This document shows, one piece after another, positions 31,282-44,709 of a stretch of DNA of 64,000 nucleotides. Every line of letters begins with the position of its first letter. The first letter of the stretch is position 1. The position numbers and the translations under genes were made by a program. Below the pieces are notes generated by a model. That model made no database searches. It was given only the letters and a program-made list of their open reading frames with translations, and had not been told where the DNA came from. Location: assembly GCF_053078305.1 (NCBI RefSeq), contig NZ_CP166879.1. One strand, given 5' to 3'.

Positions 31282-32098
31282 AACGAACGCCTGTCCTGAT
31301 TGATGTGAACGGCGTTCCGCTTCGGGAGAGCCTAAGCTACAACGGGGGCGGCGCAGGATTTGGCGGGCAAATGGCAGAGTGGTTGCCACCCTCGCAGAGT
31401 GCCGATGCGGCCCTGCTGCCCGCGTTGCGTCTGGGGAATGCCCGTGCAGATGATCTGGTGCGCAATAACGGAATAGCGGCCAATGCGGTGGCCCTGCATA
31501 AGGATCACATTGTCGGGCATATGTTTCTGATTAGCTACCGTCCGAACTGGCGCTGGCTGGGGATGCGGGAGACCGCGGCAAAAAGTTTTGTCGATGAGGT
31601 GGAGGCGGCCTGGTCAGAATACGCAGAAGGGATGTTTGGTGAGATCGACGTGGAAGGGAAACGCACGTTTACGGAATTTATCCGTGAAGGTGTGGGCGTT
31701 CATGCGTTTAACGGCGAAATCTTTGTGCAGCCGGTCTGGGATACGGAGAGCACGCAACTGTTTCGTACGCGTTTTAAAGCCGTGAGTCCGAAACGGGTGG
31801 ACACGCCAGGACACGGTATGGGGAACCGTTTTCTGCGGGCCGGTGTGGAGGTCGATCGATATGGTCGTGCCGTTGCGTACCATATCTGTGAGGATGATTT
31901 TCCTCACTCCGGGAGTGGACGATGGGAACGGATCCCGCGTGAACTTCTCACCGGGCGTCCGGCCATGCTGCATATTTTCGAGCCGGTGGAGGACGGGCAG
32001 ACCCGTGGGGCCAATCAGTTTTACAGCGTCATGGAACGGCTGAAGATGCTCGATTCCCTGCAGGCAACACAGCTTCAGTCGGCCATTGTTAAAGCCAT
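31278..32098 (+). pseudogene. B: Portal protein gpB, 5' part (about 273 codons), interrupted by island insertion
   Basis: Lambda B-like up to ...TQLQSAIVKA, then 17 unrelated codons and a stop at 32150. Confidence 0.9.
32091..32098. repeat. attL core (AAAGCCAT)
   Basis: Identical octamer at 43930-43937. TATG follows 1 nt downstream at both junctions. Confidence 0.7.
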
Positions 32099-32227
32099 TT
32101 ATGTCTATCATCTCCCCGTAGTTGTCCGCATCGTTCGCCAACTCCACTGAAACCCTTGCTGCGGCTGGAATGTCGTTTTCCATACTTTTGATGACCGTTC
32201 ATCACACTTCCAGGTTTTCGCGGTTTT

Positions 32228-32280
32228 GTGTATTGCAATGTGTATTGCAAATTGGCGATCGGGATGGGTGTGTATTGCAA
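32228..32280. repeat. GTGTATTGCAA repeats (candidate integrase arm-type sites, left arm)
   Basis: Three copies at 32228-38, 32240-50 and 32270-80. Two more lie at 43835-57 near the other end. Confidence 0.5.
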
Positions 32281-32298
32281 ATCTCTTGAGGGCTGTTA

Positions 32299-33540
32299 AT
32301 GGCTATTGAAAACAAACTCAGTGACAAACTGTTAAAGAGTCTTGTCGGAAAACGGCAGGACAAACAAAAAACAATAGCGGATGGGCGCGGGTTGTCTGTG
32401 CGTGTAAGCATGGTTGGGGGGATCAGCTTTGTTTTTTACTATCGTCTTGGTGGCAGGGAATCCCCTCCGGTATGGCTTACACTTGGGCGCTATCCTGATA
32501 TGTCTCTTGCAACAGCCAGGCGCATGCGTGATCAGTGCCGTGAGTGGCTGGCTGAAAATCTGGACCCCCGCAGGCAAATAAAACTTGCCGCCGAAAAAAC
32601 CATGCAACCAGTGACCGTAAGGGATGCGCTGTTTTACTGGTACGACAATCACGCCACAACAGCCAGAAAAGAGCATGAATATTTAATAAAACGATTTGAA
32701 AAGCATATCTTCCCCTATATCGGTGATATGGCTATAGAACAGTGCAAATTACACACATGGCTTGCCGTCTTTGACAGGATCAAAAAAAATGCGCCTGTTA
32801 TGTCTGGTGCAATTTTTCTTGATATCAAACAGGCGTTGCGTTTTTGTCGCGTCAGGCAATACATCGCGTGCGATCCCTTTGGCGATATTAACGTAAGTTA
32901 TGTCGGGCGCTCATCCGGTATAAGGGATCGCGTTCTTAATATCAATGAAACAGCGGATGTATGGTCTTATGCTTACGGTAATAATTTGCTGACACTGTCA
33001 TCAATACATAACAGAAGAATAATGGTTATCTGCCTGGTGTTTGGTTGCCGTCAGCAGGAGGCGAGGTTATCCACATGGGACGAATGGGATTTAAAAAACT
33101 GGGTATGGACAGTCCCAAAAGAGCACAGCAAAAACAAGGAGGCCATAGTAAGGCCTGTTCCTGACGGCATAAAACAATGGCTCGTTAATCTTTACGCAGA
33201 AACAAAAAATCGCGGTTATGTTGTCGGTTGTGCTTTGCAAAGGGCGACAATAACAGGGGCTGCAAACAGAATATGCAGGCGTCTTGGTCATGATATTAAT
33301 GGCTTGTGGTGCATACATGATTTCAGGCGCACATTTTCCACTGCGCTTAATGATATGGGGGCGGATCCTTATATTGTCGAACTTCTTTTAGGTCATAAAG
33401 TGAAAGGGGTTGCCGGTGTTTACAATAAAAGCAGGCATATAAAGAAAAAACTTGAGGTGCTTAATATGTGGGTTAATTACCTTAATACGATAGCAGGATT
33501 TAACAACAACGTTATCGAGCTTAATAAAGAGGTGGTGTGA
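32299..33540 (+). CDS. int: P4-type tyrosine integrase
   Basis: 413 aa. N-terminal KLSDKLLKSL...DGRGLSVRV...FVFYYRLGG (DUF4102-like arm-binding domain). C-terminal HDFRRTFST...LLGHKV..VAGVYN. Confidence 0.9.
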   Translation: MAIENKLSDKLLKSLVGKRQDKQKTIADGRGLSVRVSMVGGISFVFYYRLGGRESPPVWLTLGRYPDMSLATARRMRDQCREWLAENLDPRRQIKLAAEKTMQPVTVRDALFYWYDNHATTARKEHEYLIKRFEKHIFPYIGDMAIEQCKLHTWLAVFDRIKKNAPVMSGAIFLDIKQALRFCRVRQYIACDPFGDINVSYVGRSSGIRDRVLNINETADVWSYAYGNNLLTLSSIHNRRIMVICLVFGCRQQEARLSTWDEWDLKNWVWTVPKEHSKNKEAIVRPVPDGIKQWLVNLYAETKNRGYVVGCALQRATITGAANRICRRLGHDINGLWCIHDFRRTFSTALNDMGADPYIVELLLGHKVKGVAGVYNKSRHIKKKLEVLNMWVNYLNTIAGFNNNVIELNKEVV

Positions 33541-33541
33541 T

Positions 33542-33799
33542 ATGGCAATTTATTCTCTTGTTGATGAAAACGATTTGCGCACAATGAAGGACATTGATCG
33601 GTTCATTCGTGAAAAAGAGTGCATAGCACTTACCACGCTGGCAAACTCAACACGCTGGAAAATGGAGCAGGCAGGTAAATTCCCGCGACGTATCAAGATC
33701 GGTGAACGTGCGGCAGGGTATCGACTTTCAGAGGTTCAGGCATGGATCCGTGGTGAGTGGCATCCTGGATGGAAACCTGGAAAAACAAAACAGCAATAA
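33542..33799 (+). CDS. alpA: AlpA-family regulator/excisionase
   Basis: 85 aa with ...STRWKMEQAGKFPRRIKIGERAAGYRLSEVQAWI, the AlpA/Vis-type HTH. Directly after int. Confidence 0.75.
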   Translation: MAIYSLVDENDLRTMKDIDRFIREKECIALTTLANSTRWKMEQAGKFPRRIKIGERAAGYRLSEVQAWIRGEWHPGWKPGKTKQQ

Positions 33800-33812
33800 C
33801 CAGTAAATAACG

Positions 33813-33834
33813 CCCCTCATCAAGAGGGGTTTTT
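33813..33834 (+). terminator. Intrinsic terminator after alpA
   Basis: CCCCTC-ATCAA-GAGGGG followed by T5. Confidence 0.6.
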
Positions 33835-33853
33835 GTCTATAGGGTAAAACGCG

Positions 33854-34432
33854 ATGAATAAAAATATTGCCGTGACGGGCAAGGGGTACGCTCGTCCAGT
33901 GAAAAAATTCTGTGATATTCGTGATCTTGTCGTTCTGCGCTTTGATGGTGTGAGCGTTCGCGTGGTGTATGTGAACGGCGATCCGTGGTTTGTTGCCGTT
34001 GACGTGTGCGCTGCGCTGGAAATTGTTGATCACAAGGTTGCGTTACGCCGTCTCGATGATGATGAAAAGGGGGAGTGTTTAATACCCACCCCAGGTGGAA
34101 ATCAAACAATGCGAACGGTATGCGAGTCAGGGTTCTACAAACTAATCGCCAGAAGTCGGAAAGCTGTTACTCCTGGCACGTTCGCCCGTCGTTTCAGTAA
34201 CTGGGTATTCAGAAATGTGATACCAGGTATCAGAAAAACGGGGGCTTATGGTATCCCGTGGGGGGCATTACAGGATTTTTCCCGCCGTAAAGAGCAATAT
34301 CAAATAAGTGCCAGCGAGAAGGGGAGGGAGCTACAGGCATGTAAGCGCAAAAAACGTGAACTGGAGGAAGAAGAAAAAAGGCTGATACGTGAATATCAGC
34401 CTGAGTTTTACTTTGGTGAGCGTATTCAGTAA
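33854..34432 (+). CDS. BRO-N domain protein (antirepressor-like)
   Basis: ...LRFDGVSVRVVYVNGDPWFVAVDVCAALEI...GGNQTMRTVCESGFYKLIARSR, a Bro-N pattern. Confidence 0.65.
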   Translation: MNKNIAVTGKGYARPVKKFCDIRDLVVLRFDGVSVRVVYVNGDPWFVAVDVCAALEIVDHKVALRRLDDDEKGECLIPTPGGNQTMRTVCESGFYKLIARSRKAVTPGTFARRFSNWVFRNVIPGIRKTGAYGIPWGALQDFSRRKEQYQISASEKGRELQACKRKKRELEEEEKRLIREYQPEFYFGERIQ

Positions 34433-34770
34433 CCACACGCGGTGCTGATTATACGGTACATCGTGTTAACCGAGAAGCTACCCACCAGCAAGGCAAAATC
34501 TTCTGCTAAAAAATGACATATGGCCAGTCGTCCGGAAAGCATGAAATTTTACAAAAATGGAAAATGAAGATTTTTATTGTGCTGGTGGGTAAAAACAAAA
34601 AGCGCCCCGTTGCCGGAGCGCCCTTGTGAACAATTAACCTGCTGCGAAAAAATTGGATCAGTGCAGGGAAATTATATCAACTGTGTGAAGAAGCGCCACA
34701 ATTGCCAGTTTAGCTTTGCGGCGAACGCGTCAATAAAGAATATTCTTTCTTTAAATTCTGTTTGTGTATT

Positions 34771-34800
34771 TTTTCGTAGTTTTTCGTAGTTTTTCGTAAG
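34771..34800. repeat. Three tandem 10-bp repeats TTTTCGTAGT
   Basis: Exact 10-bp periodicity. The same CTACGAAA half site forms a palindrome at 43442-43458. Confidence 0.6.
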
Positions 34801-34895
34801 GAGAAAGAGCGGCGCGTATGCACCGCTAAGGAGTTTATTTTCATGACTTATGCAGCTTTCAATCTTAGCACCGCCGTAGCTGGTGGACAAGGCTA

Positions 34896-35123
34896 TCAGC
34901 CAGGCGGTCGGTTTTTAGTGGCTTTTAACCGCCGTGGGTATTTCTCGACAAAATCTTCAAGGGCAAATTTTTCTGGTGGCACTAAGCGCGGCGCTGGTGG
35001 TGGTATTTTTGTTCTGGTTAGTTCTTCCTCAAGTCTGGCGCAGGCTTCTAACTGCCTTTGCCGGATGATTTCATCATCTTGCGTTTGCGTGTCTTGTATT
35101 GGTGATAGTGTGTTGTTGGTCAT
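34896..35123 (-). CDS. Hypothetical protein (second gene of the leftward regulatory operon)
   Basis: 75-aa ORF downstream of the RHH gene. Confidence 0.4.
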   Translation of the reverse strand: MTNNTLSPIQDTQTQDDEIIRQRQLEACARLEEELTRTKIPPPAPRLVPPEKFALEDFVEKYPRRLKATKNRPPG

Positions 35124-35180
35124 GATACTGCCCTGTAAAGCAATGCGCCGGAGTACCTCACGCCACGGCGCTGATAGTGA

Positions 35181-35486
35181 TTATTCTGATTCTTGGGTCT
35201 TGCGACGCTGGAGTTCTTCGCGTGCAACGGTGACAAGTTGCCCGATTTCTTCCGCTGCTTTGATGCCGATTTGTTCGACCTTAGCCAGAGCATCCAGTGA
35301 AGACACAAGGGGATTTTCTCCGCTGCCTTCTGCCTGGCGGCGGGCGATTTCACCGCGCATGGCGGTTACTATGAATCCGGCGTTGCTTTCACCGTCCAGT
35401 TTTACGGATTCCATGCCTTCAATAACATCATGCGGGATCCGAGCTGTCAGTGATTGTGATTTTGCGTTTTTTGAACCTGTAGCCAT
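35181..35486 (-). CDS. Ribbon-helix-helix (Arc/CopG-like) regulator
   Basis: ATG at 35486 with RBS GAGAGGA. N-terminal KSQSLTARIPHDVIEGMESV beta-strand/helix pattern. Divergent from the rightward operon. Confidence 0.55.
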   Translation of the reverse strand: MATGSKNAKSQSLTARIPHDVIEGMESVKLDGESNAGFIVTAMRGEIARRQAEGSGENPLVSSLDALAKVEQIGIKAAEEIGQLVTVAREELQRRKTQESE

Positions 35487-35507
35487 CTGTAATCCTCTCA
35501 ATGAAAG

Positions 35508-35576
35508 TGTAAGACAATATACACATAAAAAGTCTTACATAAAAGCATTGACATGTAAGCCACCTATAAATAAAGT
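35508..35576. promoter_or_regulatory. Operator palindrome plus rightward promoter
   Basis: TGTAAGAC (35508-15) and GTCTTACA (35532-39) form an inverted repeat. TTGACA (35548-53), 17 bp, TAAAGT (35571-76). Confidence 0.45.
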
Positions 35577-35805
35577 TACTTACACCTTGTTAATGCAAGG
35601 TGCAGAAACGACGAAACCCGGCAGTGCGCTAACACTAACCGGGCTTCTAACCACCAACGATAGAAAGCGTATCGAGGTAGCTATGAGAAATCATACCACA
35701 CACCCGCAAGGGCGGGACTCGCACAACCTGAATAAATACATCTGGCGTTTTCTGGCCCGAAAAAACCAGTTGATCGCCAGTGTCGAAAATAGCTATGATT
35801 CCCGC

Positions 35806-35883
35806 GCACCTCATAAAACGGGTGCCGGGATTGGCGTCCTGGGCAAAACTGAAGCGCATAACACGCGCCCCGCGTGTTTTTTT
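35806..35883 (+). ncRNA. C4 / IsrK / P4-CI-like small RNA element in the island leader
   Basis: GCACC-TCATAAAACG-GGTGC; CCGGGA-TTGGCG-TCCTGG; ACACGCG-CCC-CGCGTGT plus T7. Loop 2 is complementary to ACGCCAA at 35963-69. Homologous to 6877-6801. Confidence 0.55.
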
Positions 35884-36045
35884 GTGCCGCATAGTCACAC
35901 CTTATCAATGGTGGGCTGTACGGGGGCGGAGCAATCCGCGCCGGTTTCTTCAGTGTCCGGTTACGCCAACCCTGTACAGTCCGCCACCAGCGAAATTGGC
36001 GTTTCCGGTGGCGGTTATCTTAACCACACTGAGGAGGCTGCCAAC

Positions 36046-36237
36046 ATGGCTACTATCCCTACCCTTGTACATTCTCAAACCGCCTTTCTCTGGCGCTTTA
36101 TCATCTTTGGCGCGTCAGACCATCAAATCATCCACGTCACCGCCTGGACGGAACGCGAAGCGCGTAGCCGTTGCCCGTCCGGTTGTGTTGCTGTATTCGC
36201 CGCCCGTATTCGTCAGGAGGTGTGCCATGTGCAATAA
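36046..36237 (+). CDS. Icd-like small protein (host cell-division inhibitor family of P1/P4-type elements)
   Basis: RBS GAGGAGG. MATIPTLVHSQTAFLWRF...VTAWTEREARSRCPSG... Has the same first 7 codons as the helper rha gene. Confidence 0.5.
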   Translation: MATIPTLVHSQTAFLWRFIIFGASDHQIIHVTAWTEREARSRCPSGCVAVFAARIRQEVCHVQ

Positions 36238-36484
36238 AACCACACCGGACGCAGCCGCCGCGCTCACTACACTGATGCACGCGCTGATTGATATTTCTGT
36301 TATTGCTGACAGGGCGCATAAGCACGCCACCAGTGAAACAGAATATGCCGGGGCTTTCGTTCCTCATTCGCTGGCGGTTATGCAACTTAGTGCTGATATG
36401 GCGCTGAATGAGGCCAAAGCTATCCTGATTTCTGATTGTGAAAATGGGGGGGGGTTATGCGTGATGATCGTTTTAATGCCCTGA
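36227..36484 (+). CDS. Hypothetical protein
   Basis: 85 aa, RBS AGGAGG. Overlaps the icd-like stop. Confidence 0.4.
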   Translation: MCNKTTPDAAAALTTLMHALIDISVIADRAHKHATSETEYAGAFVPHSLAVMQLSADMALNEAKAILISDCENGGGLCVMIVLMP

Positions 36485-36678
36485 AACAGGAGTTTGATGG
36501 TGCGCCTGATGATGCAGGTGATGCGCTTTCGTCAATATCCGAACTGATAAGAGTGGCCTTTTTCTTACTTGGCACGAAAGAATATAAATCAACTGGAATA
36601 GACGTACTGAATATTACTGCTGATTATGCGGAATATATGGCAGAAGTGGATTTAAGAAAGATAACGGACAGGGGGTAA
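36457..36678 (+). CDS. Hypothetical protein
   Basis: 73-aa coupled ORF. Confidence 0.4.
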   Translation: MRDDRFNALKQEFDGAPDDAGDALSSISELIRVAFFLLGTKEYKSTGIDVLNITADYAEYMAEVDLRKITDRG

Positions 36679-36679
36679 T

Positions 36680-36913
36680 ATGCGTGATATTTACCACGAA
36701 ACAATAGACCGCGCATTTAGTGCCCTTGCTTACGCTGAAGGTATGTACGAAATATTGCAAATGTGTCTGGAAACATTTGGCGATAATGAGCGTGATGTAA
36801 AGAAGGCGCGGATTATTAAATCACTGATAACTCTCCTTGAACCTGTAATAACAGAGTTGCAGGAAATAGACTTATTGCACGACAGATATAACGAACAGCA
36901 CACCGGAGAATAA
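36680..36913 (+). CDS. Hypothetical protein
   Basis: 77-aa coupled ORF. Confidence 0.4.
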   Translation: MRDIYHETIDRAFSALAYAEGMYEILQMCLETFGDNERDVKKARIIKSLITLLEPVITELQEIDLLHDRYNEQHTGE

Positions 36914-36918
36914 AAATA

Positions 36919-37218
36919 ATGAAACTTAAATATCCTGGCTTAACTGCCAGTGGCAACACTCACCCTAAATTTACGCGCGGTGATATTTACCGCGACCAGT
37001 ACGGCGGCACGGTAATGATTAAGGGCGTGGCGGGACGGTGCGTAACTTACCGCCGTGAAGGCTACGAATATGATTGCGTGATGCCTGTTTATCAGTTCCG
37101 GCGTGATTTTTCTCTGGTACAGACCGCGCCGCATAACGTGCCCACCAGCAACGCCAGGGCACGGGCAAACATCCAGAAGCTGAAAACCATGATTAACGGA
37201 TTCAGGGGTAAAAAATGA
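36919..37218 (+). CDS. Hypothetical protein
   Basis: 99-aa coupled ORF. Confidence 0.4.
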   Translation: MKLKYPGLTASGNTHPKFTRGDIYRDQYGGTVMIKGVAGRCVTYRREGYEYDCVMPVYQFRRDFSLVQTAPHNVPTSNARARANIQKLKTMINGFRGKK

Positions 37219-38624
37219 AACTGGCACCGAACGTAAAACGATTACCGAAAGATAAATACACCGAAGCGGTTATTTTTGCGGGTATTGATGCTCACTCATT
37301 CGCAGAGCATTACATCATTGCACAGGCCAAAAAAGCAGGCGATCCAGTCCCTCCCGTTTATCTGGGGCGTTATCAGTTAAGCGAACTGGATAACCTCCAG
37401 ATTGTTGATGATGGGCGATACAGGGCGACGGTGATACGCGCCGGAAATATTGAAGAGCCGCAGCTGTTAACCATCGCCACGAAACTGGCGAGCGCCGGAG
37501 TCCAGGAGGCGCGGCTACTTTCTGAAAATTTCGAATTGCTGGAGGAATGGAGCGACCAGCTTCCACGGCTTAGGGAGGCATGGGAACGCGGGGAAAGCCT
37601 GGTCATGAAAAAAATTCCCCAGCGAAAAACCACGCTACCGATGAGCGTTGGATCTACCGGATACGACACACAGCTTGATTACGTGGTAAAGGGGATTATT
37701 CCGGCATCGTCGCTTTGCAGCATATACGGGGCGAGCGGTTCCTATAAATCATTCCTTGCCGGATCGTGGGCGTGTCACGTTTCCACGGGCCGCCAGTGGG
37801 GAGGCCGCAGGGTGGCGCATGGCGCTGTTCTCTATGTGGTTGGTGAAGGCGGTATCGGCGTTCCGCGTCGTGTAAAAGCCTGGGAGGTTGTGCACGGTGA
37901 GCAGGTGAAAAATCTGTATCTGGTAAACCGTCCCATCTTTCCGGCTGTCCCGCTTGATGTTGATGAACTGGTTATTGCTGCCAGTCAGGTGGAGAGGGAA
38001 ACGGGTAAACCTGTTCGCATGATTATTCTGGACACGCTGGCGCGTTGCTTTGGCGGCAATGATGAAAATGACTCCCGCGACATGGGGGCATTTATCCGTG
38101 GTTGTGACGAGCTTAAACGGCGCACAGGGGCTACGGTGCTGGTGGTTCACCATTCCGGCAAGGATGAAACAAAGGGGGCGCGTGGTTCCAGTGCATTTCG
38201 TGCATCACTGGACGCTGAATACCGGATACGCAGGGAGGACGCAGGAAGCGAAGCGCTGGTTATCTCATGCACCAAAATGAAGGACGCGGAGGAACTCAAA
38301 GAGGCTGCCTATGATTTGCGGGTGGTGGAGCTTTTTACCGACGCTGACGGGGAGTTAATTACGTCGCTGGTGGTGGTGGATAAGCCGCGCCCTCCCGTTG
38401 AACTGGAGCGCATCGAGGAGGCAGGCAACAAGACGGAAAACCATACCGCGCTATGGGGGTGCATCCGTTCACGCACACAGAACGGCGACAAGTGCACGAT
38501 CCCGCTGTTACGTGACGATATGAAAAAGCTGGGGTATGACACAAAACACCTTAAACGATGGTTAGCCAAACTGGAAAAAGACGACGTGATCTACATTGAC
38601 GGTGATGATGTAGGACCACTGTAA
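37215..38624 (+). CDS. Replication protein with RepA/AAA_25-type RecA-fold ATPase domain
   Basis: Walker A-like YGASGSYKSF, MIILDTLARCFGG..ENDSRDM and LVVHHSGKDETKGARGSSA motifs typical of RepA-like helicases. Iterons follow. Confidence 0.65.
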   Translation: MKLAPNVKRLPKDKYTEAVIFAGIDAHSFAEHYIIAQAKKAGDPVPPVYLGRYQLSELDNLQIVDDGRYRATVIRAGNIEEPQLLTIATKLASAGVQEARLLSENFELLEEWSDQLPRLREAWERGESLVMKKIPQRKTTLPMSVGSTGYDTQLDYVVKGIIPASSLCSIYGASGSYKSFLAGSWACHVSTGRQWGGRRVAHGAVLYVVGEGGIGVPRRVKAWEVVHGEQVKNLYLVNRPIFPAVPLDVDELVIAASQVERETGKPVRMIILDTLARCFGGNDENDSRDMGAFIRGCDELKRRTGATVLVVHHSGKDETKGARGSSAFRASLDAEYRIRREDAGSEALVISCTKMKDAEELKEAAYDLRVVELFTDADGELITSLVVVDKPRPPVELERIEEAGNKTENHTALWGCIRSRTQNGDKCTIPLLRDDMKKLGYDTKHLKRWLAKLEKDDVIYIDGDDVGPL

Positions 38625-38825
38625 AAAGTGGGCATTAAAAGTGGGAAAGGTGGGCGATTTAACGTAATTTTAACAAAATCACCCACTTTCCCACGTGTAT
38701 ATATCCCAAAAAGTGGGCACTAAAAAAATACCTATGAAACAAGATGATATAAATCCCAAACTTCCCACGTTGGACGAAGTGGGAAAACGTAAAAAGTGGG
38801 CGAAAAAAGTGGGTAGAGGTGGGCG
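38620..38825. repeat. Island ori candidate: AAAGTGGG iterons
   Basis: At least 8 direct (A/G)GTGGG copies (38627, 38640, 38649, 38712, 38778, 38795, 38808, 38818). Inverted copies at 38682-94 and 38764. Located directly 3' of rep. Confidence 0.6.
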
Positions 38826-38826
38826 A

Positions 38827-39078
38827 ATGACTCAAAAACACAGAGACAGAACAGAGCCAAAATATAAAGCGTTAGACATGACAGAGCACGCTTTAAAGGT
38901 GGCAATCAGGGTAATAGACCGCCACACGCGGGAAGGATACGCGAAGGAACATCCCGACCTGATAAGCGCATTCATGACCACAGCGGCGGCAAACTTTGCC
39001 ACGCTGACAGAACGGGAGATAGCCGAAGCGGAACAGGTAACAACCATCAACGTTAAAACCGGAGAGGTGGAATCATGA
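38827..39078 (+). CDS. Hypothetical protein
   Basis: 83 aa from the ATG at 38827. Longer starts (38695 GTG) would read through the iterons. Confidence 0.35.
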   Translation: MTQKHRDRTEPKYKALDMTEHALKVAIRVIDRHTREGYAKEHPDLISAFMTTAAANFATLTEREIAEAEQVTTINVKTGEVES

Positions 39079-39485
39079 CAGCACAGATAGCCGCTTACGG
39101 GCGGCTGGTGGACGACCCGCAGGTAAAACAAACCAGCAAGGGCACACCGATGACGCTGGCGCGTATGGCGGTATCTCTGCCATGCAGCCAGGCACAGGAC
39201 GGGCAGGCTACGTTATGGCTATCAGTGATGGCATTTGGTAAGCAGGCCGACTTCCTGGCTAAACATCAAAAAGGCGATGTTGCCAGCGTATCCGGCACGA
39301 TGCAGGTAAGCCAGTGGACCAGACAGAACGGGGAAACGCGGCAGGGTTATCAGGTTATTGCAGACAGTGTAATCAGTGCCCGTGCTGCCCGTCCTGGCGG
39401 GAGCAGACGTACAACCACAGGCACACAGGGTAATCAGCCACCAGCGGGAGGCGATGACCCTTACGGTGACGGTATTCCGTTCTGA
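39075..39485 (+). CDS. ssb: Single-stranded DNA-binding protein
   Basis: OB-fold N-terminus, Gly/Pro-rich linker and an acidic tail DDPYGDGIPF. Confidence 0.8.
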   Translation: MTAQIAAYGRLVDDPQVKQTSKGTPMTLARMAVSLPCSQAQDGQATLWLSVMAFGKQADFLAKHQKGDVASVSGTMQVSQWTRQNGETRQGYQVIADSVISARAARPGGSRRTTTGTQGNQPPAGGDDPYGDGIPF

Positions 39486-39495
39486 GGGGGTGACG

Positions 39496-39768
39496 ATGGT
39501 ACATGACCGCATAGCGGAGGAACTCGAGGCAAAAGGCTTTTACCGGAGGGCGGCGGCGCGATGGGGTGAAGTTATGCAGCTGGTGGAGACAGACAAGGAA
39601 CGGCATCAGGTTACGATGCGACGGCTGGAATGTTCCAGGAAGGCACAGAGGCCACCGGAGCCGCCGGATAACTTCGGAGACCTGAAAAAAGCAGTAGATC
39701 GCACTTATGCCGAAATGGGTATGGATGGTGTAAGCGATGAAATATGGCGTAATTACCCAGACAGCTAA
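39496..39768 (+). CDS. PerC-like transcriptional activator
   Basis: MVHDRIAEELEAKGFYRRAAARWGEVM.. resembles the recalled PerC-family N-terminus. Confidence 0.45.
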   Translation: MVHDRIAEELEAKGFYRRAAARWGEVMQLVETDKERHQVTMRRLECSRKAQRPPEPPDNFGDLKKAVDRTYAEMGMDGVSDEIWRNYPDS

Positions 39769-39774
39769 TCAACA

Positions 39775-39796
39775 GCCGGAGAAATCCGGCTTTTTT
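39775..39796 (+). terminator. Intrinsic terminator
   Basis: GCCGGAGAAATCCGGC plus T6, identical to the hairpin at 42049-42071. A second hairpin lies at 39810-39845. Confidence 0.65.
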
Positions 39797-40007
39797 GTAC
39801 CCAAAAAAAGCCCGATAAGTACAGGAGGCATCTTATCGGGCTTTTGCATATGAGGTTTTTTTGGTGCACTGACACACATGATCGGGGTAATCATTTCATA
39901 ATTTGCAACACAACTCAACATCATTGCACAAAATGCAATCCTGATTATAATCAGAGCTGGATGAACATCCAGTTCTGATTTTTTAAGTCAAAGAGGAATT
40001 TCTTACT

Positions 40008-40214
40008 ATGGCTGAAGAGAAAAAAGGCGGTGTTTCGGTGTACATAAGCCCCGAAATCGTGGAGGTGCTCAAGCAGCGCCACAAAAAAAACTATGAGGCT
40101 GGCGTAGCGGCTGGACTGGATCCGCTGATGACGCCGGAGCCGTCGATAGGTTCACTTGTGCGCTCTTATTTACTTGCGGCGCTTGGGATGCATAAAAATT
40201 ATGGTGGTGAATAA
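40008..40214 (+). CDS. Hypothetical small protein, first gene of the island head operon
   Basis: 68 aa, RBS AAGAGGA. Stop overlaps the capsid-gene start. Confidence 0.4.
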   Translation: MAEEKKGGVSVYISPEIVEVLKQRHKKNYEAGVAAGLDPLMTPEPSIGSLVRSYLLAALGMHKNYGGE

Positions 40215-41269
40215 TGACAGTAAAAGCAATGGCACTTACAACTAACCAGCTTTTCGCGTACCTGAATCGCGGGGATATTGCAGAATTTAAATTCAGTCCG
40301 CTGTTTACCACGCTGTTTTTCCCGAACGTGGCGACCTTCAACACCCAGAACATCATGCTGGACACCCTGGACATTGAAGAGGTTACGATGTCAGCGTTCT
40401 GTTCGCCTATGGTGGGTAGTCAGGTCCAGCGCGATAAAGGGTACGAAACCAGCACGATTAAACCAGGCTACATGAAACCCAAACACGAAATCGATCCAAC
40501 AAAAACCATCATGCGCATGGCTGGAGAAGATCCGGCACAGCTTAACGACCCTACCTACCGCCGTATGCGCCTGATTACTGGCAACATGCGCCGCCAGATA
40601 AACGCCATTAAAGCGCGCGTGGAATGGCTGGCGGTGAATGCGATAACGACCGGAAAAAACATCATTGAGGGCGAAGGCATAGAACGCTATGAAATCGACT
40701 GGAAAATACCGGAAAACTGCATCATAGAGCAGGCCAAGGGTAAAAAATGGTCCGAGCATGATAAAGATATTTACGATCCAATCTATGACATCGAACTATA
40801 CGCAGATCAGGCAGGTTGCCCCGCCAACGTCATGATTATGGGCGCTGAGGTATGGCGCACGTTACGCAGCTTTAAAAAATTCCGCGAACTGTACGATCTT
40901 TCCCGTGGTTCAGAATCCGCCGCAGAACTGGCCTGTAAAAACCTGGGTGAAGTAGTGAGCTTTAAAGGCTATCTGGGCGATATTGCCCTTATCGTCTATT
41001 CCGGCAAATACACTGACAGCGACGGTACCGAAAAATATTTCCTTGAGCCTGATTTGCTGGTCCTGGGTAACACCAACAATAAAGGGCTGGTGGCCTATGG
41101 TGCGATTATGGATCAGGAAGCGGTAAGAACGGGCGCAACGCAAAACATGTTCTACCCGAAAAACTGGATTGAAGACGGCGATCCGGCGATTGAGTACGTT
41201 CAGACGCACAGCGCACCGCAGCCGGTACCGGCAGATATTCGCAAATTTGTTACCGTCAAAATTGCTTAA
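40214..41269 (+). CDS. Lambda gpE-family major capsid protein paralogue (E')
   Basis: 351 aa. Shares PGY.KPKHE, GEDPAQLNDP.YRR, VVSFKGY.GD, DGTEK, YPK.W and GDPA.E blocks with helper E (46646-47674). Confidence 0.85.
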   Translation: MTVKAMALTTNQLFAYLNRGDIAEFKFSPLFTTLFFPNVATFNTQNIMLDTLDIEEVTMSAFCSPMVGSQVQRDKGYETSTIKPGYMKPKHEIDPTKTIMRMAGEDPAQLNDPTYRRMRLITGNMRRQINAIKARVEWLAVNAITTGKNIIEGEGIERYEIDWKIPENCIIEQAKGKKWSEHDKDIYDPIYDIELYADQAGCPANVMIMGAEVWRTLRSFKKFRELYDLSRGSESAAELACKNLGEVVSFKGYLGDIALIVYSGKYTDSDGTEKYFLEPDLLVLGNTNNKGLVAYGAIMDQEAVRTGATQNMFYPKNWIEDGDPAIEYVQTHSAPQPVPADIRKFVTVKIA

Positions 41270-41280
41270 CGGGGGATTCT

Positions 41281-41616
41281 ATGGACACTCCATACATTGA
41301 GTTATTTGCAGGCAGTCAGCAGGTATCCACGACGCTGGTACATTTTGCCGCTGATGCTGGCGTTATTCAGGAATTTACCCCGCTGATGCTGGCGGACAAT
41401 GGCGAGTTTAAGCCGTGGGATGGTCAGGAATCTGGCAAGGCTGTTTATCTGACCTCGTACCCCGTGGACACGTCAAAGCAGAAATCAGCACAGTGTTACA
41501 AGACGGGGATATTTAATATCGCCGCCGTAAACTGGCCTGAGAGCGCCGACACTGACGCGAAAAAATGCGCCGCCTTTGCGGGTTCTGGCGTATCCGTTCA
41601 GCCGCTGGCGCGATAA
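41281..41616 (+). CDS. Lambda gpD-family head decoration protein paralogue (D')
   Basis: 111 aa. Shares TPLML, WDGQ, YK.G.F, WPES and AF.G blocks with helper D. Confidence 0.75.
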   Translation: MDTPYIELFAGSQQVSTTLVHFAADAGVIQEFTPLMLADNGEFKPWDGQESGKAVYLTSYPVDTSKQKSAQCYKTGIFNIAAVNWPESADTDAKKCAAFAGSGVSVQPLAR

Positions 41617-41628
41617 GCAGGGGAAACG

Positions 41629-42042
41629 ATGGCAACGAATGAAAGCATCATGGCGCTACCGCTGGCGAGTAAATTTAAAGCAGAAGCGCGGGCAATGGCT
41701 GACAGAGGTTTATCAACCTACGAGGCCGTATATCAACTCAACAAACTGGAAGAGCAGGACAAGCCGCGCGCTGATGCGATTATGGCGCTTCATGAACATA
41801 ACGACTATCAGCCGCTGTTACGTGCAATGGCAAACGTGCCATGTATTAGCGTCGATAATGCTCGTGAAATCCTGAACATGACCATAGAGCAGGAGCGCCC
41901 AAAGGTTGCGCCGGAGCTTACCGCAGCCTTTGAAAACTTTATGGACATGCACAGCCCGAAAGCCGTATCACCCGGCATGGCATACGACGGCAGAAACCAG
42001 GGCGATGAAGGCGACGTCGATCGCATACTGAAAACCATCTGA
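41629..42042 (+). CDS. Nu3-like scaffolding protein (Nu3')
   Basis: The tail LTAAFENFMDMHSPKAVSPG...GDEGDVDRIL parallels the helper gpC tail TTALFEHFMANHSPAAVQGG...GDADVKML. Also IMALHE...ISVDNAREIL versus IMALDE...MTVESARAVL. Confidence 0.65.
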   Translation: MATNESIMALPLASKFKAEARAMADRGLSTYEAVYQLNKLEEQDKPRADAIMALHEHNDYQPLLRAMANVPCISVDNAREILNMTIEQERPKVAPELTAAFENFMDMHSPKAVSPGMAYDGRNQGDEGDVDRILKTI

Positions 42043-42048
42043 CATAAG

Positions 42049-42071
42049 GCCGGAGAAATCCGGCTTTTTTT
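42049..42071 (+). terminator. Intrinsic terminator abutting the island cos
   Basis: GCCGGAGAAATCCGGC plus T7. Confidence 0.65.
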
Positions 42072-42073
42072 AC

Positions 42074-42140
42074 GGGTCCTTTCCGGCATATGGACCCGTT
42101 ACGGGGCGGCGACCTCGCGGTTTTTCGCTATTTATGAGCT
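42074..42140 (+). promoter_or_regulatory. Island cos site 2 (same orientation as helper cos)
   Basis: 42074-42120 is identical to helper 28457-28503, including GGGCGGCGACCT (42104-42115). The downstream cosB-equivalent is different. Confidence 0.85.
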
Positions 42141-42248
42141 TTTTTCGGGTGCTGGTGGTGGTTTTGTTGTTCGCTCTATCTCTATGAATAAAAAGGGAAA
42201 GATAAAACCAATACACCAACCTGAAACATTACTTAAGTGGGGATATTG

Positions 42249-42791
42249 ATGAAATCGCACCTGATGAACAAAAAAAACATGGCGCAAAGCTGCCGTGTAA
42301 GTGCGACAGCGTTCGACAAGTGGGGAGTGACTCCCGTTGAACGTAAAGGACGCGAGGCTTTTTACGATGTTGCCAGCGTGATAGACAATCGGGTAAGCAA
42401 TGCAATTAACCAGGTTACAAACGACAAAGGCGAGATTGATGATGATGAACTCTTACGAGTCAGGATCAGATTACTGACCGCCCAGGCTGAGGCGCAGGAA
42501 CTTAAAAACGAGCGCGATCGCGGTGACGTAATTGATACTGAGTTTTGCCTGTACGCGCTTTCAAAGCTGGCGAGTCAGATTTCTTCAATCATGGACAGTT
42601 TGCCGCTTACCATGCAAAGGCGCTTCCCGCAGATTACTCCCGCTATGCTGGATGGGCTTAAAAGGGAAGTGGTTAAAGCCTGTAATGCCAGTGCCACAGT
42701 TGCCGACAACCTCCCGAAGATACTGGCTGATTACCTGATGGAAACTACCGGAGACGTACCGGAGAAGTTGCTACAGAAGAAAGGCGAGTAA
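42249..42791 (+). CDS. Nu1-family terminase small subunit paralogue (TerS')
   Basis: N-terminal MNKKNMAQSCRVSATAFDKWGV resembles lambda Nu1 (VNKKQLADIFGASIRTIQNW). The C-terminal FCLYALSKLASQISSIMDSLPLTMQRRFPQI..ILADYL parallels the helper TerS. Start 42237, 42249 or 42264. Confidence 0.8.
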   Translation: MKSHLMNKKNMAQSCRVSATAFDKWGVTPVERKGREAFYDVASVIDNRVSNAINQVTNDKGEIDDDELLRVRIRLLTAQAEAQELKNERDRGDVIDTEFCLYALSKLASQISSIMDSLPLTMQRRFPQITPAMLDGLKREVVKACNASATVADNLPKILADYLMETTGDVPEKLLQKKGE

Positions 42792-42940
42792 CAGACGCGC
42801 AATTATTGAACAAAAGTAAGGCCCGACATGAAATCACCCAAAAATGCCTTTTTCATGCGTTTGTATGTCTGACCTTTTACGGTTTCGATATTATAAAAAA
42901 CAAATAGTTACGCTCGAGAGGTACCGACACGCATTTTTCA

Positions 42941-43014
42941 GGAAAATTTTCATAAACAGATAAAAACCGCGAGGTCGCCGCCCCGTAACGGGCCATAATT
43001 CCAGGAAGGACCCG
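42941..43014 (-). promoter_or_regulatory. Island cos site 3 (inverted, diverged flanks)
   Basis: Reverse complement reads GGGTCCTTCCTGGAATTATGGCCCGTTACG-GGGCGGCGACCT-CGCGGTTTTTATCTGTTTATGAAAATTTTCC. The core lies at 42972-42983. Confidence 0.8.
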
Positions 43015-43047
43015 ACGACACCAGGCTATCAGAACGATGAGGGCACA

Positions 43048-43329
43048 ATGACAGAAGCCGAACTACTGGGATTAATCCGCTACGTTACCGGAATCAGCCA
43101 GCAGCATGACGAACAGGCCACGCAGCCGGACAGCGTGACCGCTGAAAATTATGCGCGTGTTGTTGCTGAGGTGATGCGCCGTGATGGTATCCAGCTTAAT
43201 GATGCAGATATGCGCGACATACGGATCCGCGTTCTTGAAATGCTGGCCTACCGTCGCCGCGTGCAGACGTACAGGGAAAAAGCAAAAATAACGTACCAGT
43301 GGAAGAAGCCGGAGCGATTACGGCGGTAA
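43048..43329 (+). CDS. Hypothetical protein
   Basis: 93-aa ORF, last gene before the right arm. Confidence 0.4.
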   Translation: MTEAELLGLIRYVTGISQQHDEQATQPDSVTAENYARVVAEVMRRDGIQLNDADMRDIRIRVLEMLAYRRRVQTYREKAKITYQWKKPERLRR

Positions 43330-43441
43330 CTTGCTGATATTCCCGATAACGCAAAATTGCGCTCTGTCCTAACCCGTTGATATTTTCGGGAACAGCCAAC
43401 GGCTGAGGCCGGAACAACGATTATCTTTCAGATAGTCAGAG

Positions 43442-43458
43442 CTACGAAATTTTCGTAG
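43442..43458. repeat. Palindrome CTACGAAA-T-TTTCGTAG
   Basis: Perfect 8+1+8 inverted repeat of the half site that is repeated at 34771-34800. Confidence 0.6.
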
Positions 43459-43724
43459 TTTAATTACTCGCCAGTTTATCGTTAACTCGTTGATATTTTC
43501 GGTAACCTCAATTTGAGGAGATCGGAAACATAACCCTTCACATTCTGAATGGTTATAATGACCACTCAGACCATCAAGGCAACCATAACGAACATCGTTA
43601 CGGTTGGAGCTTTTACCCCACTGGGGGGAAGGTGCACATCTGGATCATCATTACCGTGATCAAGGGTATGTAAAACCCACCAGCCTGATTAACTGTTAAC
43701 CGGAAAAAAGCCAGGTAGCCAATC

Positions 43725-43748
43725 TCGATATGGGGATCCCCATATCGA
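43725..43748. repeat. 24-bp perfect palindrome TCGATATGGGGATCCCCATATCGA
   Basis: Read directly from the sequence, in the ORF-free right arm. Confidence 0.6.
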
Positions 43749-43834
43749 CATTAACGCCCCCTAGAACTGCGCATATCTGCATATAAAAACATCCACCAGC
43801 TTTATGACGGATGCCGCTCATCTGATAAATAATC

Positions 43835-43857
43835 GTGTATTGCAATGTGTATTGCGA
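43835..43857. repeat. GTGTATTGCAA repeats (right arm)
   Basis: GTGTATTGCAA at 43835-45 and GTGTATTGCGA at 43847-57. Confidence 0.5.
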
Positions 43858-43929
43858 CTCCTTTAAACGATAGGTTTGAGCATTCGTAATGTACTGTTTT
43901 TAAATTTTATTTTTTCCTGTCTTTTCATA

Positions 43930-44709
43930 AAAGCCATGTATGCAGCGACGATTGAAAGTGAACTTGATACCGAAAAGGCCTTTGAATATATCGCCGGTGC
44001 GCCGCAGGGGCAGAAGGATAATCCGCTTATTAATATTCTGGATAAGTTCTCCACCTGGTATGACACGAATATCGTGACGCTGGGCGGTGTCAAAATTCCG
44101 CACCTTTTCCCCGGTGATGATCTGAAACTTCAGACCGCGCAGGATTCAGACAATGGATTTTCGGCGCTTGAACAGGCGCTGCTGCGGTATATCGCCGCCG
44201 GTCTTGGCGTTTCCTACGAACAGTTGTCCCGTGATTACTCGAAGGTCAGTTATTCAAGTGCCCGCGCCTCCGCCAATGAGTCGTGGCGCTATTTTATGGG
44301 ACGACGAAAATTTATTGCAGCCCGGCTGGCCACGCAGATGTTTTCCTGCTGGCTGGAAGAGGCACTTCTTCGGGGGATTATCCGTCCGCCACGGGCACGT
44401 TTTGATTTTTATCAGGCGCGTTCAGCCTGGTCGCGGGCAGAGTGGATTGGCGCAGGAAGAATGGCCATTGACGGGCTCAAGGAGGTCCAGGAATCAGTGA
44501 TGCGCATTGAGGCCGGACTGAGCACGTATGAGAAAGAGCTGGCGCTGATGGGTGAGGATTATCAGGACATTTTCCGCCAGCAGGTCAGGGAATCCGCAGA
44601 GCGGGAAAAAGCCGGACTCTCACGTCCGGTGTGGATAGCGCAGGCGTATCAGCAGCAGATAGCAGAGAGCCGCAGGCCGGAAGAGGAGACAACACCACGT
44701 GAGACGTAA
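43930..44709 (+). pseudogene. B: Portal protein gpB, 3' part
   Basis: KAMYAATIESELD...LLRYIAAGLGVSYEQLSR...ARASANESWRYFMGRRKF...GAGRMAIDGLKEVQE is collinear with the recalled lambda B C-terminal half. Codons upstream of 43930 are island DNA. Confidence 0.9.

What the first reader, a model, noticed from the sequence alone, without database searches (positions are those of the whole stretch)
32091..43937. An 11.8-kb integrase-bearing satellite-like island sits exactly inside the helper prophage's portal gene
Seen: ORF 31278-32150 is lambda gpB-like up to ...TQLQSAIVKA, then leaves the family and stops 17 codons later. The ORF ending at 44709 re-enters the family at KAMYAATIESELD. Deleting one repeat copy plus the intervening DNA joins both halves in frame with no codon lost. 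Both junctions carry AAAGCCAT (32091-98 and 43930-37), with TATG 1 nt further on each side. Just inside the left junction lie a P4-type integrase and AlpA. GTGTATTGCAA repeats sit 130-190 bp inside the left end and 75-100 bp inside the right end, the geometry of arm-type sites. Inference: this is a site-specific element whose attB is a conserved codon block of its presumed helper's portal gene, not a tRNA or host gene. While it is integrated the helper has no portal. Only precise excision recreates one, so head assembly, including the island's own, would depend on island excision. I am not aware of a described satellite family that uses its helper's portal gene as attB.
Basis: partly seen in the sequence, partly recalled or inferred. 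Interest (0 to 1): 0.92.

Follow-up and report, generated by a model that had tools for sequence, protein, structure and literature searches.

The report
Known satellite embedded in prophage portal gene
An 11.8-kb phage satellite really does sit precisely inside the portal gene of a lambda-like E. coli prophage, but this arrangement (a "helper-embedded PICI" at portal site B:Phage_portal_2:241) was described and catalogued in 2023, so it is a clean new instance of a known thing, not a discovery.

Summary
The portal gene is split at 32098/43938. Removing the insert and one copy of AAAGCCAT restores an in-frame 530-aa lambda-type portal. That restored junction occurs uninterrupted (up to 99.7% identity over 300 bp) in 1853 of 5426 complete E. 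coli genomes.

The insert is a gram-negative PICI-type satellite. It carries int, alpA, a Bro-N gene, isrK/C4 RNAs, a RepA-type helicase, SSB, homologues of capsid E, decoration D and a Nu3-like scaffold, a Nu1-type TerS, and two lambda-type cos sites.

The novelty claim fails. Tommasini, Mageeney and Williams (NAR Genom Bioinform 2023, PMC10111431) described "helper-embedded PICIs" at 14 sites in nine lambdoid late genes, including B:Phage_portal_2:241. Their tables list Eco14761.12.B_Phage_portal_2_241 with the same AAAGCCAT block. Its attL and attR are 159/163 and 151/154 identical to this window. The idea that the late gene stays off until the satellite excises is theirs too, shown experimentally only for a sister element in capsid gene E.

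Separately, a Mu-like prophage is inserted in the helper's gpZ at 48940/48941, so this helper is probably crippled.

The parts
31278..32098 (+). 5' half of the helper prophage portal gene (lambda gpB family), codons 1-273 plus the first bases of the core
   Evidence: Pfam Phage_portal_2 profile 2-237; 99.4% identical to intact E. coli portal genes
32091..32098 (+). attL core AAAGCCAT; the next bases, TTATG, come from the island's attP side
   Evidence: Same identity block as the published Eco14761.12.B_Phage_portal_2_241
32227..32279 (+). Doubled motif tgTGTATTGCaatgTGTATTGCa (32227-32249) plus a third half-site (32271-32278), between attL and int
   Evidence: The motif starts +132.5 bp from the attP centre, against a published 132 +/- 2. 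Spacing is identical in L001 and L002, and 138 bp in L004
32299..33540 (+). Tyrosine integrase of the HE-PICI clade
   Evidence: Pfam Arm-DNA-bind_3, Phage_int_M and Phage_integrase. 53% identical to the 11capE Int, 41% to a chromosomal PICI Int, unrelated to the helper Int
33542..33799 (+). AlpA-family regulator / presumed excision directionality factor
   Evidence: Pfam Phage_AlpA, E 5e-14; 67% identical to the 11capE AlpA
33854..34432 (+). Bro-N domain protein resembling an anti-repressor ('Bro zone')
   Evidence: Pfam Bro-N; phrog_2593 anti-repressor, E 1.5e-78
35181..35501 (-). Small ORF on the opposite strand, function unknown; its counterpart in related islands is annotated YlcI/YnfO family
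   Evidence: phrog_6522, E 6e-59; annotated counterparts in L001-L004
35806..35991 (+). isrK-like (35806-35882) and C4 antisense (35904-35991) RNA pair, a P1/P4-type immunity RNA module
   Evidence: Rfam RF01394 at 66 bits and RF01695 at 77.6 bits, both above gathering score. The published paper reports such hits in some HE-PICIs
36457..37218 (+). Three small ORFs of unknown function; the last (36919-37218) corresponds to the ORF annotated DUF4222 in related islands
   Evidence: phrog_24341, phrog_2196 and phrog_285; annotation of L003
37215..38624 (+). RepA-type replicative helicase (replication zone)
   Evidence: Pfam AAA_25, E 6.5e-44; annotated 'helicase RepA family protein' in homologous islands
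39075..39485 (+). Single-stranded DNA-binding protein
   Evidence: Pfam SSB, E 3e-17
40214..41269 (+). Island copy of the major capsid protein (lambda gpE family)
   Evidence: Pfam Phage_cap_E, E 2.5e-50; 47% identical to the helper gpE at 46646-47674
41281..41616 (+). Island copy of the head decoration protein (lambda gpD family)
   Evidence: Pfam HDPD; 34% identical to the helper gpD
41629..42042 (+). Homologue of the C-terminal (Nu3 scaffold-like) part of the head protease gpC
   Evidence: phrog_1999; phrog_53 positions 494-567 of 583; 35% identical to helper gpC residues 416-493
42066..42137 (+). Island cos site 1, upstream of terS. The cosN 24-mer at 42097-42120 is identical to the helper's at 28480-28503
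   Evidence: 94% identity over 72 bp to helper 28450-28520; alignment; 24-mer search
42237..42791 (+). Island small terminase subunit (lambda Nu1 family). The C-terminal half resembles the helper Nu1; the N-terminal DNA-binding part does not
   Evidence: Pfam Phage_Nu1, E 6e-24; 48% identity over residues 58-171 only
42941..43015 (-). Island cos site 2, inverted, downstream of terS
   Evidence: 88% identity to the helper cos; exact cosN 24-mer at 42967-42990 on the minus strand. The same pair is present in L003. Two cos sites are published for EcCICFT073
43048..43329 (+). Conserved small ORF of unknown function
   Evidence: phrog_1561, E 1.5e-55
43834..43856 (+). Doubled motif cgTGTATTGCaatgTGTATTGCg near the right end
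   Evidence: The centre of the second half-site lies -82 bp from the attP centre, against a published 81 +/- 2. The 94-bp spacing to the core is identical in L001 and L002
43930..43937 (+). attR core AAAGCCAT; the next bases, GTATG, belong to the portal gene
   Evidence: The attR of Eco14761.12 is 151/154 identical
43938..44709 (+). 3' half of the helper portal gene
   Evidence: Pfam Phage_portal_2 profile 238-354; in-frame join
28450..31281 (+). Helper late genes upstream of the portal and co-oriented with the island: cos (28450-28520), Nu1 (28682-29191), terminase large subunit (ends at 31091), gpW-like (31075-31281)
   Evidence: ORFs; cos alignment; annotation of the equivalent genes in L001 and L002
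48471..48940 (+). Helper gpZ (minor tail protein Z), truncated at about residue 157 of 190 by insertion of a Mu-like prophage that starts at 48941 and runs past the window end
   Evidence: Pfam Minor_tail_Z 1-157/190, with MuA at 50184-52292 and MuB at 52364-53296. Homology breakpoints

Best explanation
The 11.8-kb insert (32099-43929, plus one core copy) is a helper-embedded phage-inducible chromosomal island (HE-PICI) of the published site group B:Phage_portal_2:241.

A P4/PICI-type tyrosine integrase recombined the island's attP (TTCATAAAAGCCATTTATGTC) with an 8-bp identity block in codons Lys-Ala-Met (residues 272-274) of the lambda-type portal gene. The host prophage is a lambdoid integrated next to rspB in an E. 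coli chromosome. The island has the same orientation as the late operon.

**Shown here**
- The exact junctions and the in-frame restoration of the portal.
- The existence of the empty site in other genomes and phages.
- Recurrence of the same int module in split portal genes of other genomes, in prophages at different chromosomal sites.
- The conserved doubled TGTATTGC motif at fixed distances from the core.
- The four-zone PICI gene order.

**Inferred** (from the published work on the sister element 11capE in capsid gene E, and on EcCICFT073)
1. After SOS induction the whole composite excises and replicates.
2. Q-antiterminated late transcription runs through nu1-A-W and the 5' portal fragment into int-alpA.
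3. Int, with AlpA, excises the island. This rebuilds the portal gene late and releases a circular satellite.
4. The satellite replicates with its own RepA-type helicase and SSB.
5. It is packaged from its own cos sites. Its Nu1-type TerS keeps a helper-like C-terminal half, presumably for docking to the helper's large terminase, and has a different DNA-binding N-terminus.
6. Its own E, D and Nu3-like proteins may take part in shell assembly. The portal, protease, large terminase and tails must come from a helper.

In this particular window the flanking prophage also carries a Mu-like prophage inside gpZ. It probably cannot make infectious particles itself, so the island would need another lambdoid helper in the cell.
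For: - **Junctions and frame:**
- **Empty attB in other genomes and phages:**
- **Recurrence:** the int module is present at >=80% coverage in 59 complete E. coli genomes. Every listed hit lies beside a 'phage portal protein' pseudogene. Full composites were seen in GZEC065 and EC93, inside prophages flanked by DLP12-type genes (essD, rrrD, nohD, emrE, ybcK). The window's prophage is at rspB.
- **Published class and site:** PMC10111431 abstract and sections 17-20.
- **Listed near-identical member:** Eco14761.12.B_Phage_portal_2_241 has block 'aaagccat', with attL 159/163 and attR 151/154 identical to the window.
- **Motif and spacing:**
- **Integrase relationships:** 53% identity to the 11capE Int, 41% to the Int of the chromosomal PICI with the most similar backbone, none to the helper Int.
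- **Gene content:**
- **cos and TerS:**
Against: - No experiment exists for the portal site group. Excision timing was measured only for 11capE in gene E, and even there no virions or plaques could be recovered.
- Read-through late transcription into int is a hypothesis. The simple scan found no terminator-like site between the portal fragment and int, which is weak evidence only.
- The Pfam coordinate of the junction is 237/238 in the current model, against '241' in the paper's naming. This is probably a difference in model version or in the central-codon convention.
- The helper here is broken in gpZ by a Mu-like insertion. The 'helper' relationship may no longer operate in this strain.
- I did not build an integrase phylogeny.
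Confidence: 0.9

Rival explanations
1. Stranded relic. The element is of the HE-PICI kind, but in this genome the composite is a dead end. The flanking prophage has lost function through the Mu-like insertion in gpZ, so the island is no longer mobilised from here. The split portal is then just one of several lesions in a decaying prophage.
For: - gpZ is truncated at about residue 157 of 190 by a Mu-like prophage whose end sits at 48941.
- Mu-type insertions are not known to excise precisely at useful frequency (established knowledge of Mu transposition).
- In EC93 the helper major capsid gene has an internal stop.
- The published authors could not recover virions from their model composite.
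Against: - The island's int, alpA, Bro-N, helicase, SSB, capsid, D and terS ORFs are all full length. Both att cores and all motif copies are intact.
- Other lambdoid prophages, common in E. coli, could supply Z, the portal and tails in trans.
- The rest of the helper tail region lies beyond the window and could not be inspected.
Confidence: 0.3
2. Accidental insertion. An ordinary chromosomal PICI landed in the portal gene at a fortuitous secondary site, with no specialisation for prophage late genes.
For: - The replication and late backbone is shared at about 90% identity with PICIs at chromosomal sites, for example between roxA and phoQ in RM14516.
- Off-target integration by these integrases is documented.
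Against: - The integration module differs from that of the chromosomal relatives (41% Int identity).
- This module is found beside a split portal gene in every listed E. coli hit, at the same codon, in prophages at different chromosomal sites.
- About 100 elements are listed at this site in the 2023 survey.
- The doubled motif specific to HE-PICIs is present here and absent from the chromosomal relative.
Confidence: 0.03
3. Assembly chimera. The junctions are artefacts that join unrelated contigs.
For: None found.
Against: - Both junctions share an 8-bp core, restore the reading frame exactly, and are reproduced in many independent complete genomes.
- They are also reproduced in published attL and attR alignments.
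Confidence: 0.01

Closest known systems
HE-PICIs of site group B:Phage_portal_2:241 (Tommasini, Mageeney & Williams 2023, PMC10111431), for example Eco14761.12.B_Phage_portal_2_241
   Same: - Same target gene and codon, and the same 8-bp identity block AAAGCCAT.
- attL and attR are 97.5-98% identical.
- Same doubled TGTATTGC motif at the same spacing.
- Same orientation relative to the late genes.
- Same Integration / Bro / Replication / Late order, and the same size class (about 12 kb).
   Different: - It is not sequence-identical, with a few substitutions in the att arms.
- The interior of Eco14761.12 could not be compared here because that sequence is not held.
- The E. coli relatives I could read (GZEC065, EC93) use the AAGGCGAT variant of the core and a primase-type replication module instead of the RepA-type helicase.
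- This window's helper sits at rspB and is additionally interrupted by a Mu-like prophage.
Eco567.11capE, the founding HE-PICI, in capsid gene E of prophage 50icd in E. coli NRG857c
   Same: - Int 53% and AlpA 67% identical.
- The doubled motif lies 138 bp downstream of the core.
- It has E, D and the same Nu3-like ORF family in the late zone, and a cos-like segment shared with the helper.
- It is the only member with induction data: the composite excises and replicates, then the satellite excises at about 2 h.
   Different: - It targets gene E (E:Phage_cap_E:80), not the portal.
- It lacks terS and carries a DUF262/HEPN pair instead.
- It has a primase-type replication protein.
EcCICFT073 and other gram-negative PICIs (Fillol-Salom et al. 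2018, PMC6092414)
   Same: - int-alpA-replication-late layout.
- Two lambda-type cos sites.
- Lambda and phi80-type helpers.
- Capsid homologues are common.
   Different: - They integrate at chromosomal sites and interact with the helper only in trans.
- EcCICFT073 lacks terS.
- According to the 2023 paper, the HE-PICI doubled motif is absent from other PICIs.
Capsid-forming PICIs (cf-PICIs)
   Same: A satellite that encodes its own capsid-related proteins.
   Different: By my recollection of the defining paper, which I did not read here, cf-PICIs encode a complete head module (portal, protease, large terminase, connectors) and take only tails from the helper. This island has no portal, protease or large terminase among its ORFs.
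Satellite phage P4
   Same: A related integrase superfamily, an AlpA/Vis-type regulator, and CI/C4-type immunity RNA.
   Different: No Sid, Psu, Delta or alpha-primase homologues appeared among the ORFs scanned. The helper type also differs (lambdoid, not P2). P4 integrates at a tRNA gene.

Membership tests
HE-PICI (helper-embedded PICI) | Integrated inside a late gene of a lambdoid prophage, disrupting it, with the empty site reconstructable | tested here: met
   The portal is split at 32098/43938 and the join is in frame. Empty sites are found in other genomes and phages.
HE-PICI (helper-embedded PICI) | Key genes (int, alpA, replication) co-oriented with the interrupted late gene | tested here: met
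   All lie on the + strand, like nu1-A-W-B-C-D-E.
HE-PICI (helper-embedded PICI) | Integrase belongs to the HE-PICI clade, with subclades matching the site | tested here: inconclusive
   No tree was built. Pairwise identity is 53% to the founder 11capE Int, 41% to a chromosomal PICI Int, and none to the helper Int. The int-alpA-bro segment (32099-34500) is 95-98% identical in nucleotides to copies beside split portals in E. coli.
HE-PICI (helper-embedded PICI) | Doubled motif tgTGTATTGCantgTGTATTGCa, in two co-oriented copies at about -81 and +132 bp from the attP centre | tested here: met
   The motif lies at 43834-43856 and 32227-32249. The downstream copy starts at +132.5 and the centre of the upstream second half-site is at -82. 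Spacing is identical in L001 and L002, near-identical in L004, and the motif is absent from the chromosomal PICI L003.
HE-PICI site group B:Phage_portal_2:241 | att identity block at the K-A-M codons of the lambda-family portal, with attL and attR alignable to listed members | tested here: met
   attL is 159/163 and attR 151/154 identical to Eco14761.12, with the same 'aaagccat' block. The junction falls at profile position 237/238 in the current Pfam model, against '241' in the paper's naming.
HE-PICI (helper-embedded PICI) | Excision after induction of the composite, restoring the late gene; helper-dependent transfer | not testable with these tools
   Excision was shown only for 11capE, by qPCR and deep sequencing. 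No virions were recovered.
Gram-negative PICI | Size 10-20 kb with the order int-alpA, then a regulatory/Bro zone, then replication, then late/packaging with cos | tested here: met
   The element is 11.8 kb. Pfam, PHROG and Rfam annotation give this order. cos sites are present.
cf-PICI | Own complete head module, including portal, protease and large terminase (definition from my own knowledge, not read here) | tested here: not met
   Only homologues of E, D, a Nu3-like protein and TerS were found among the island ORFs.
P4-like satellite | Sid, Psu, Delta, alpha primase, and dependence on a P2-type helper | tested here: not met
   None of these families appeared in the Pfam or PHROG scans of the island ORFs examined. 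The surroundings are lambdoid.

The most novel reading that the evidence does not exclude
The evidence does not exclude 'portal gating'. This island makes its own shell proteins (E, D, a Nu3-like scaffold), its own TerS and its own cos sites, but has no portal. By sitting in the helper's portal gene, it could time the appearance of the one head-initiating component it lacks to its own excision. Procapsids nucleated on the newly made portal would then be built mostly from island proteins and filled with island DNA. That would go beyond the simple 'delay of a helper late gene' already proposed.
Probability: 0.07. Interest if true: 0.45.

Novelty: already known. Interest (0 to 1): 0.15.

Why it matters
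Helper-embedded satellites are an interesting case of cis-coupling between a parasite and its helper virus. This window is a clean, fully mapped example at the portal site and could serve as one more instance for comparative work. It adds no new kind of element, site or mechanism, because the class, this exact att site, the flanking motif and the mechanistic hypothesis were all published in 2023. The only local peculiarity is three-level nesting: a lambdoid prophage at rspB carries both an HE-PICI in gpB and a Mu-like prophage in gpZ. That bears on whether this copy is still mobilisable.

Tried and rejected
- **Assembly artefact or chance repeat.** Rejected, because the join is in frame, the empty site exists and the arrangement recurs.
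- **Accidental secondary-site insertion of a chromosomal PICI.** Rejected, because the int module is distinct and is associated with the portal site.
- **The inverted second cos site (42967-42990) as something new.** It is absent from L001 and L002. It is present in the chromosomal relative L003, and two functional cos sites are already published for EcCICFT073. Not new.
- **Cross-talk between the island's and the helper's isrK/C4 RNAs.** A duplex-energy comparison gave better cognate pairs (-60.6 and -52.5) than cross pairs (-49.9 and -47.1). All values lie within about 1-3 sd of shuffled controls, so the result is inconclusive and I dropped it.
- **A phage record carrying the island.** None was found. 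Phage records match only the portal flank.
- **The same Z::Mu junction in complete E. coli genomes.** None was found.

Full report
**1.

The ORF at 31278-32150 follows the lambda gpB family up to ...TQLQSAIVKA. It then reads 17 unrelated codons and stops. The ORF ending at 44709 re-enters the family at KAMYAATIESELD.

AAAGCCAT lies at 32091-32098 and at 43930-43937. Each copy is followed by one variable base (T on the left, G on the right) and then TATG.

Joining 31278-32098 to 43938-44709 gives 1593 nt, in frame, encoding 530 aa. This protein matches Pfam Phage_portal_2 over the whole model (E 1.3e-100). Scanned separately, the two halves cover profile positions 2-237 and 238-354, so nothing is lost or duplicated.

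The empty site exists:
- A 300-bp reconstituted junction is uninterrupted at up to 99.7% identity in other E. coli genomes. It is present at >=80% coverage in 1853 of 5426 complete genomes.
- Isolated lambdoid phages such as phage 21 and PhiR12 have intact portals. Their homology to the window stops at 32103, the end of the 13-bp near-repeat.

The variable base shows which side each junction came from. GTATG belongs to the portal (attB) and TTATG to the island (attP).

**2. What the insert is**

On the + strand, in the same orientation as the helper late operon, the insert carries the following.

| Coordinates | Feature | Evidence |
|---|---|---|
| 32299-33540 | Tyrosine integrase with an arm-binding domain | |
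| 33542-33799 | AlpA | |
| 33854-34432 | Bro-N / anti-repressor-like protein | |
| 35806-35991 | isrK-like plus C4 antisense RNA pair | |
| 36457-37218 | Small conserved ORFs | |
| 37215-38624 | RepA-type helicase | |
| 39075-39485 | SSB | |
| 40214-41269 | Major capsid protein E homologue, 47% identical to the helper's | |
| 41281-41616 | Decoration protein D homologue | |
| 41629-42042 | Homologue of the C-terminal, Nu3-like part of the head protease | |
| 42237-42791 | Nu1-family small terminase | |

Only the C-terminal half of the island TerS resembles the helper Nu1 (48% identity).

Two lambda-type cos segments flank terS. Their cosN 24-mers are identical to the helper's. One is direct (42097-42120) and one inverted (42967-42990).

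This is the layout of a gram-negative PICI. The replication and late backbone is about 90% identical to islands at chromosomal sites in many E. coli genomes, for example RM14516 and O26:H11 11368. The integration module differs from theirs.

**3. The arrangement recurs**

The int-alpA-bro segment occurs at >=80% coverage in 59 complete E. coli genomes. In every listed hit it lies next to a 'phage portal protein' pseudogene.

I inspected two full composites, in GZEC065 and EC93. Both show the island between two portal fragments, inside a lambdoid prophage flanked by DLP12-type genes (essD, rrrD, nohD, emrE, ybcK) and with complete head and tail gene sets. They use a synonymous variant of the core, AAGGCGAT.

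The window's prophage is at a different chromosomal site, next to rspA/rspB. The association is therefore with the portal codon block, not with one prophage lineage.

**4. It is already described**

A full-text search found Tommasini, Mageeney and Williams, NAR Genomics and Bioinformatics 2023 (PMC10111431). The paper makes these points:
- It defines helper-embedded PICIs (HE-PICIs).
- It maps 491 of them to 14 sites in nine lambdoid late genes. 97% lie at five sites in genes A, B, C and E.
- It names three portal sites plus one putative site.
- It shows that the integrases form one clade, with subclades that follow the sites.
- It reports an HE-PICI-specific doubled motif, tgTGTATTGCantgTGTATTGCa. 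This lies 81 +/- 2 bp upstream and 132 +/- 2 bp downstream of the attP centre.
- It describes the four zones Integration, Bro, Replication and Late. It notes C4/isrK hits in some Bro zones and captured helper late genes in the Late zone.

The supplementary tables list site group B_Phage_portal_2_241. The string occurs 200 times in the element table, twice per row, so about 100 elements are listed. There are 38 aligned attL/attR pairs.

One listed element is Eco14761.12.B_Phage_portal_2_241, with identity block 'aaagccat'. Its published attL and attR segments are 159/163 and 151/154 identical to the window.

In the window, the downstream doubled motif starts +132.5 bp from the attP centre. The upstream copy's second half-site is centred at -82 bp. 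The distances from core to motif (138 bp) and from motif to core (94 bp) are identical in the window, GZEC065 and EC93. They are 138 and 96 bp in the founding element 11capE. The motif is absent from the chromosomal relative.

The window's Int is 53% identical over its full length to the 11capE Int, and AlpA is 67% identical. Int identity is 41% to the Int of the chromosomal PICI with the closest backbone, and there is no significant similarity to the helper's own Int.

The class is also cited in later satellite surveys and reviews.

**5. Mechanism**

Shown here:
- The anatomy of the element and its junctions.
- The restorable reading frame.
- The conserved att architecture.
- The co-orientation with the late operon.

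Inferred from the literature:
1. The composite excises and replicates first.
2. Helper late transcription reads into int-alpA.
3. The island then excises, rebuilding the interrupted late gene.

Steps 1 and 3 were measured for 11capE by qPCR and deep sequencing. Satellite excision was detected at 2 h, after composite replication. No virions could be recovered.

For packaging, the island has helper-type cosN sites and a TerS with a helper-like C-terminal half and a different N-terminal part. This fits redirection of the helper's large terminase to island DNA, but it is not tested. Two functional cos sites have been demonstrated for EcCICFT073.

The binding partner of the doubled motif is unknown.

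**6. A caveat specific to this window**

The helper's gpZ ORF (48471-48953) matches only positions 1-157 of the 190-position Pfam model. Homology to phage Z genes stops at 48940, and homology to a Mu-like phage begins at 48941. That Mu-like phage is annotated as an insert in two Stx phage records.

MuA-like (50184-52292) and MuB-like (52364-53296) genes follow. The same Mu-like end occurs at 100% identity inside many unrelated E. coli genes, and no complete genome shares this Z::Mu junction.

The putative helper is therefore interrupted twice. The second interruption is not expected to be reversible, so the island may be stranded here unless another lambdoid prophage helps. The helper's tail genes lie beyond the window.

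**7. Verdict**

The claim of an undescribed satellite family is not correct.

This is a further instance of a published class at a published site, with a near-identical listed member. I rate novelty 'already known' and interest low.

The least ordinary reading still open is that an island which makes its own shell, scaffold and small terminase, but no portal, uses its position in the portal gene to time head initiation in its own favour. I give this a low probability.

Noticed in passing
window 48941-64000 (left end at 48940/48941; c-repressor-like ORF 49246-49764 on the minus strand; MuA 50184-52292; MuB 52364-53296): A Mu-like transposable prophage is inserted in the lambdoid prophage's minor tail gene Z and truncates it at about residue 157 of 190. 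The same Mu-like end is found at 100% identity in many different E. coli genes and inside two Stx phage records. No complete E. coli genome shares this junction. The right end and the target duplication lie outside the window.
   Followed up: partly
window 42097-42120 (+) and 42967-42990 (-): The island's terS gene is flanked by two cos segments in inverted orientation. Their cosN 24-mers are identical to the helper's at 28480-28503. The pair is also present in the chromosomal PICI of RM14516 (L003 14989-15008 and 15854-15873). It is absent from the GZEC065 and EC93 islands. Two cos sites are published for EcCICFT073, but I did not check whether those are inverted.
   Followed up: partly
window 6689-7176 (-) and 35806-35991 (+): Helper and island each carry an isrK-like plus C4 antisense RNA pair. 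The two are about 80% identical over 231 bp. The helper's pair lies inside an Ash/Rha-type ORF (6074-6928) next to DicF (7125-7176). A duplex-energy check favoured cognate over cross pairing, but only weakly. Whether the two immunity RNAs cross-regulate remains open.
   Followed up: partly
window 41629-42042: An island ORF annotated elsewhere as 'HTH regulator' or 'head-tail connector' is instead homologous to the C-terminal (Nu3 scaffold-like) part of the lambda-type head protease. It is 35% identical to helper gpC residues 416-493. The island therefore carries E, D and a scaffold-like gene together.
   Followed up: partly
window 14216-14391, 19758-20009, 20837-21049: The helper prophage also carries a sok antitoxin RNA (hok/sok type I toxin-antitoxin), a cluster of three tRNA genes (Met-CAT, Arg-TCG, Arg-TCT) ahead of the late region, and an STnc100 sRNA.
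   Followed up: no
L002 33369-34394 (EC93) and L001 21756-22332 (GZEC065): In related composites some genes are decayed. The helper major capsid gene has an internal stop in EC93, and the island Bro-N gene is frameshifted in GZEC065. Not all helper/HE-PICI composites are functional.
   Followed up: no
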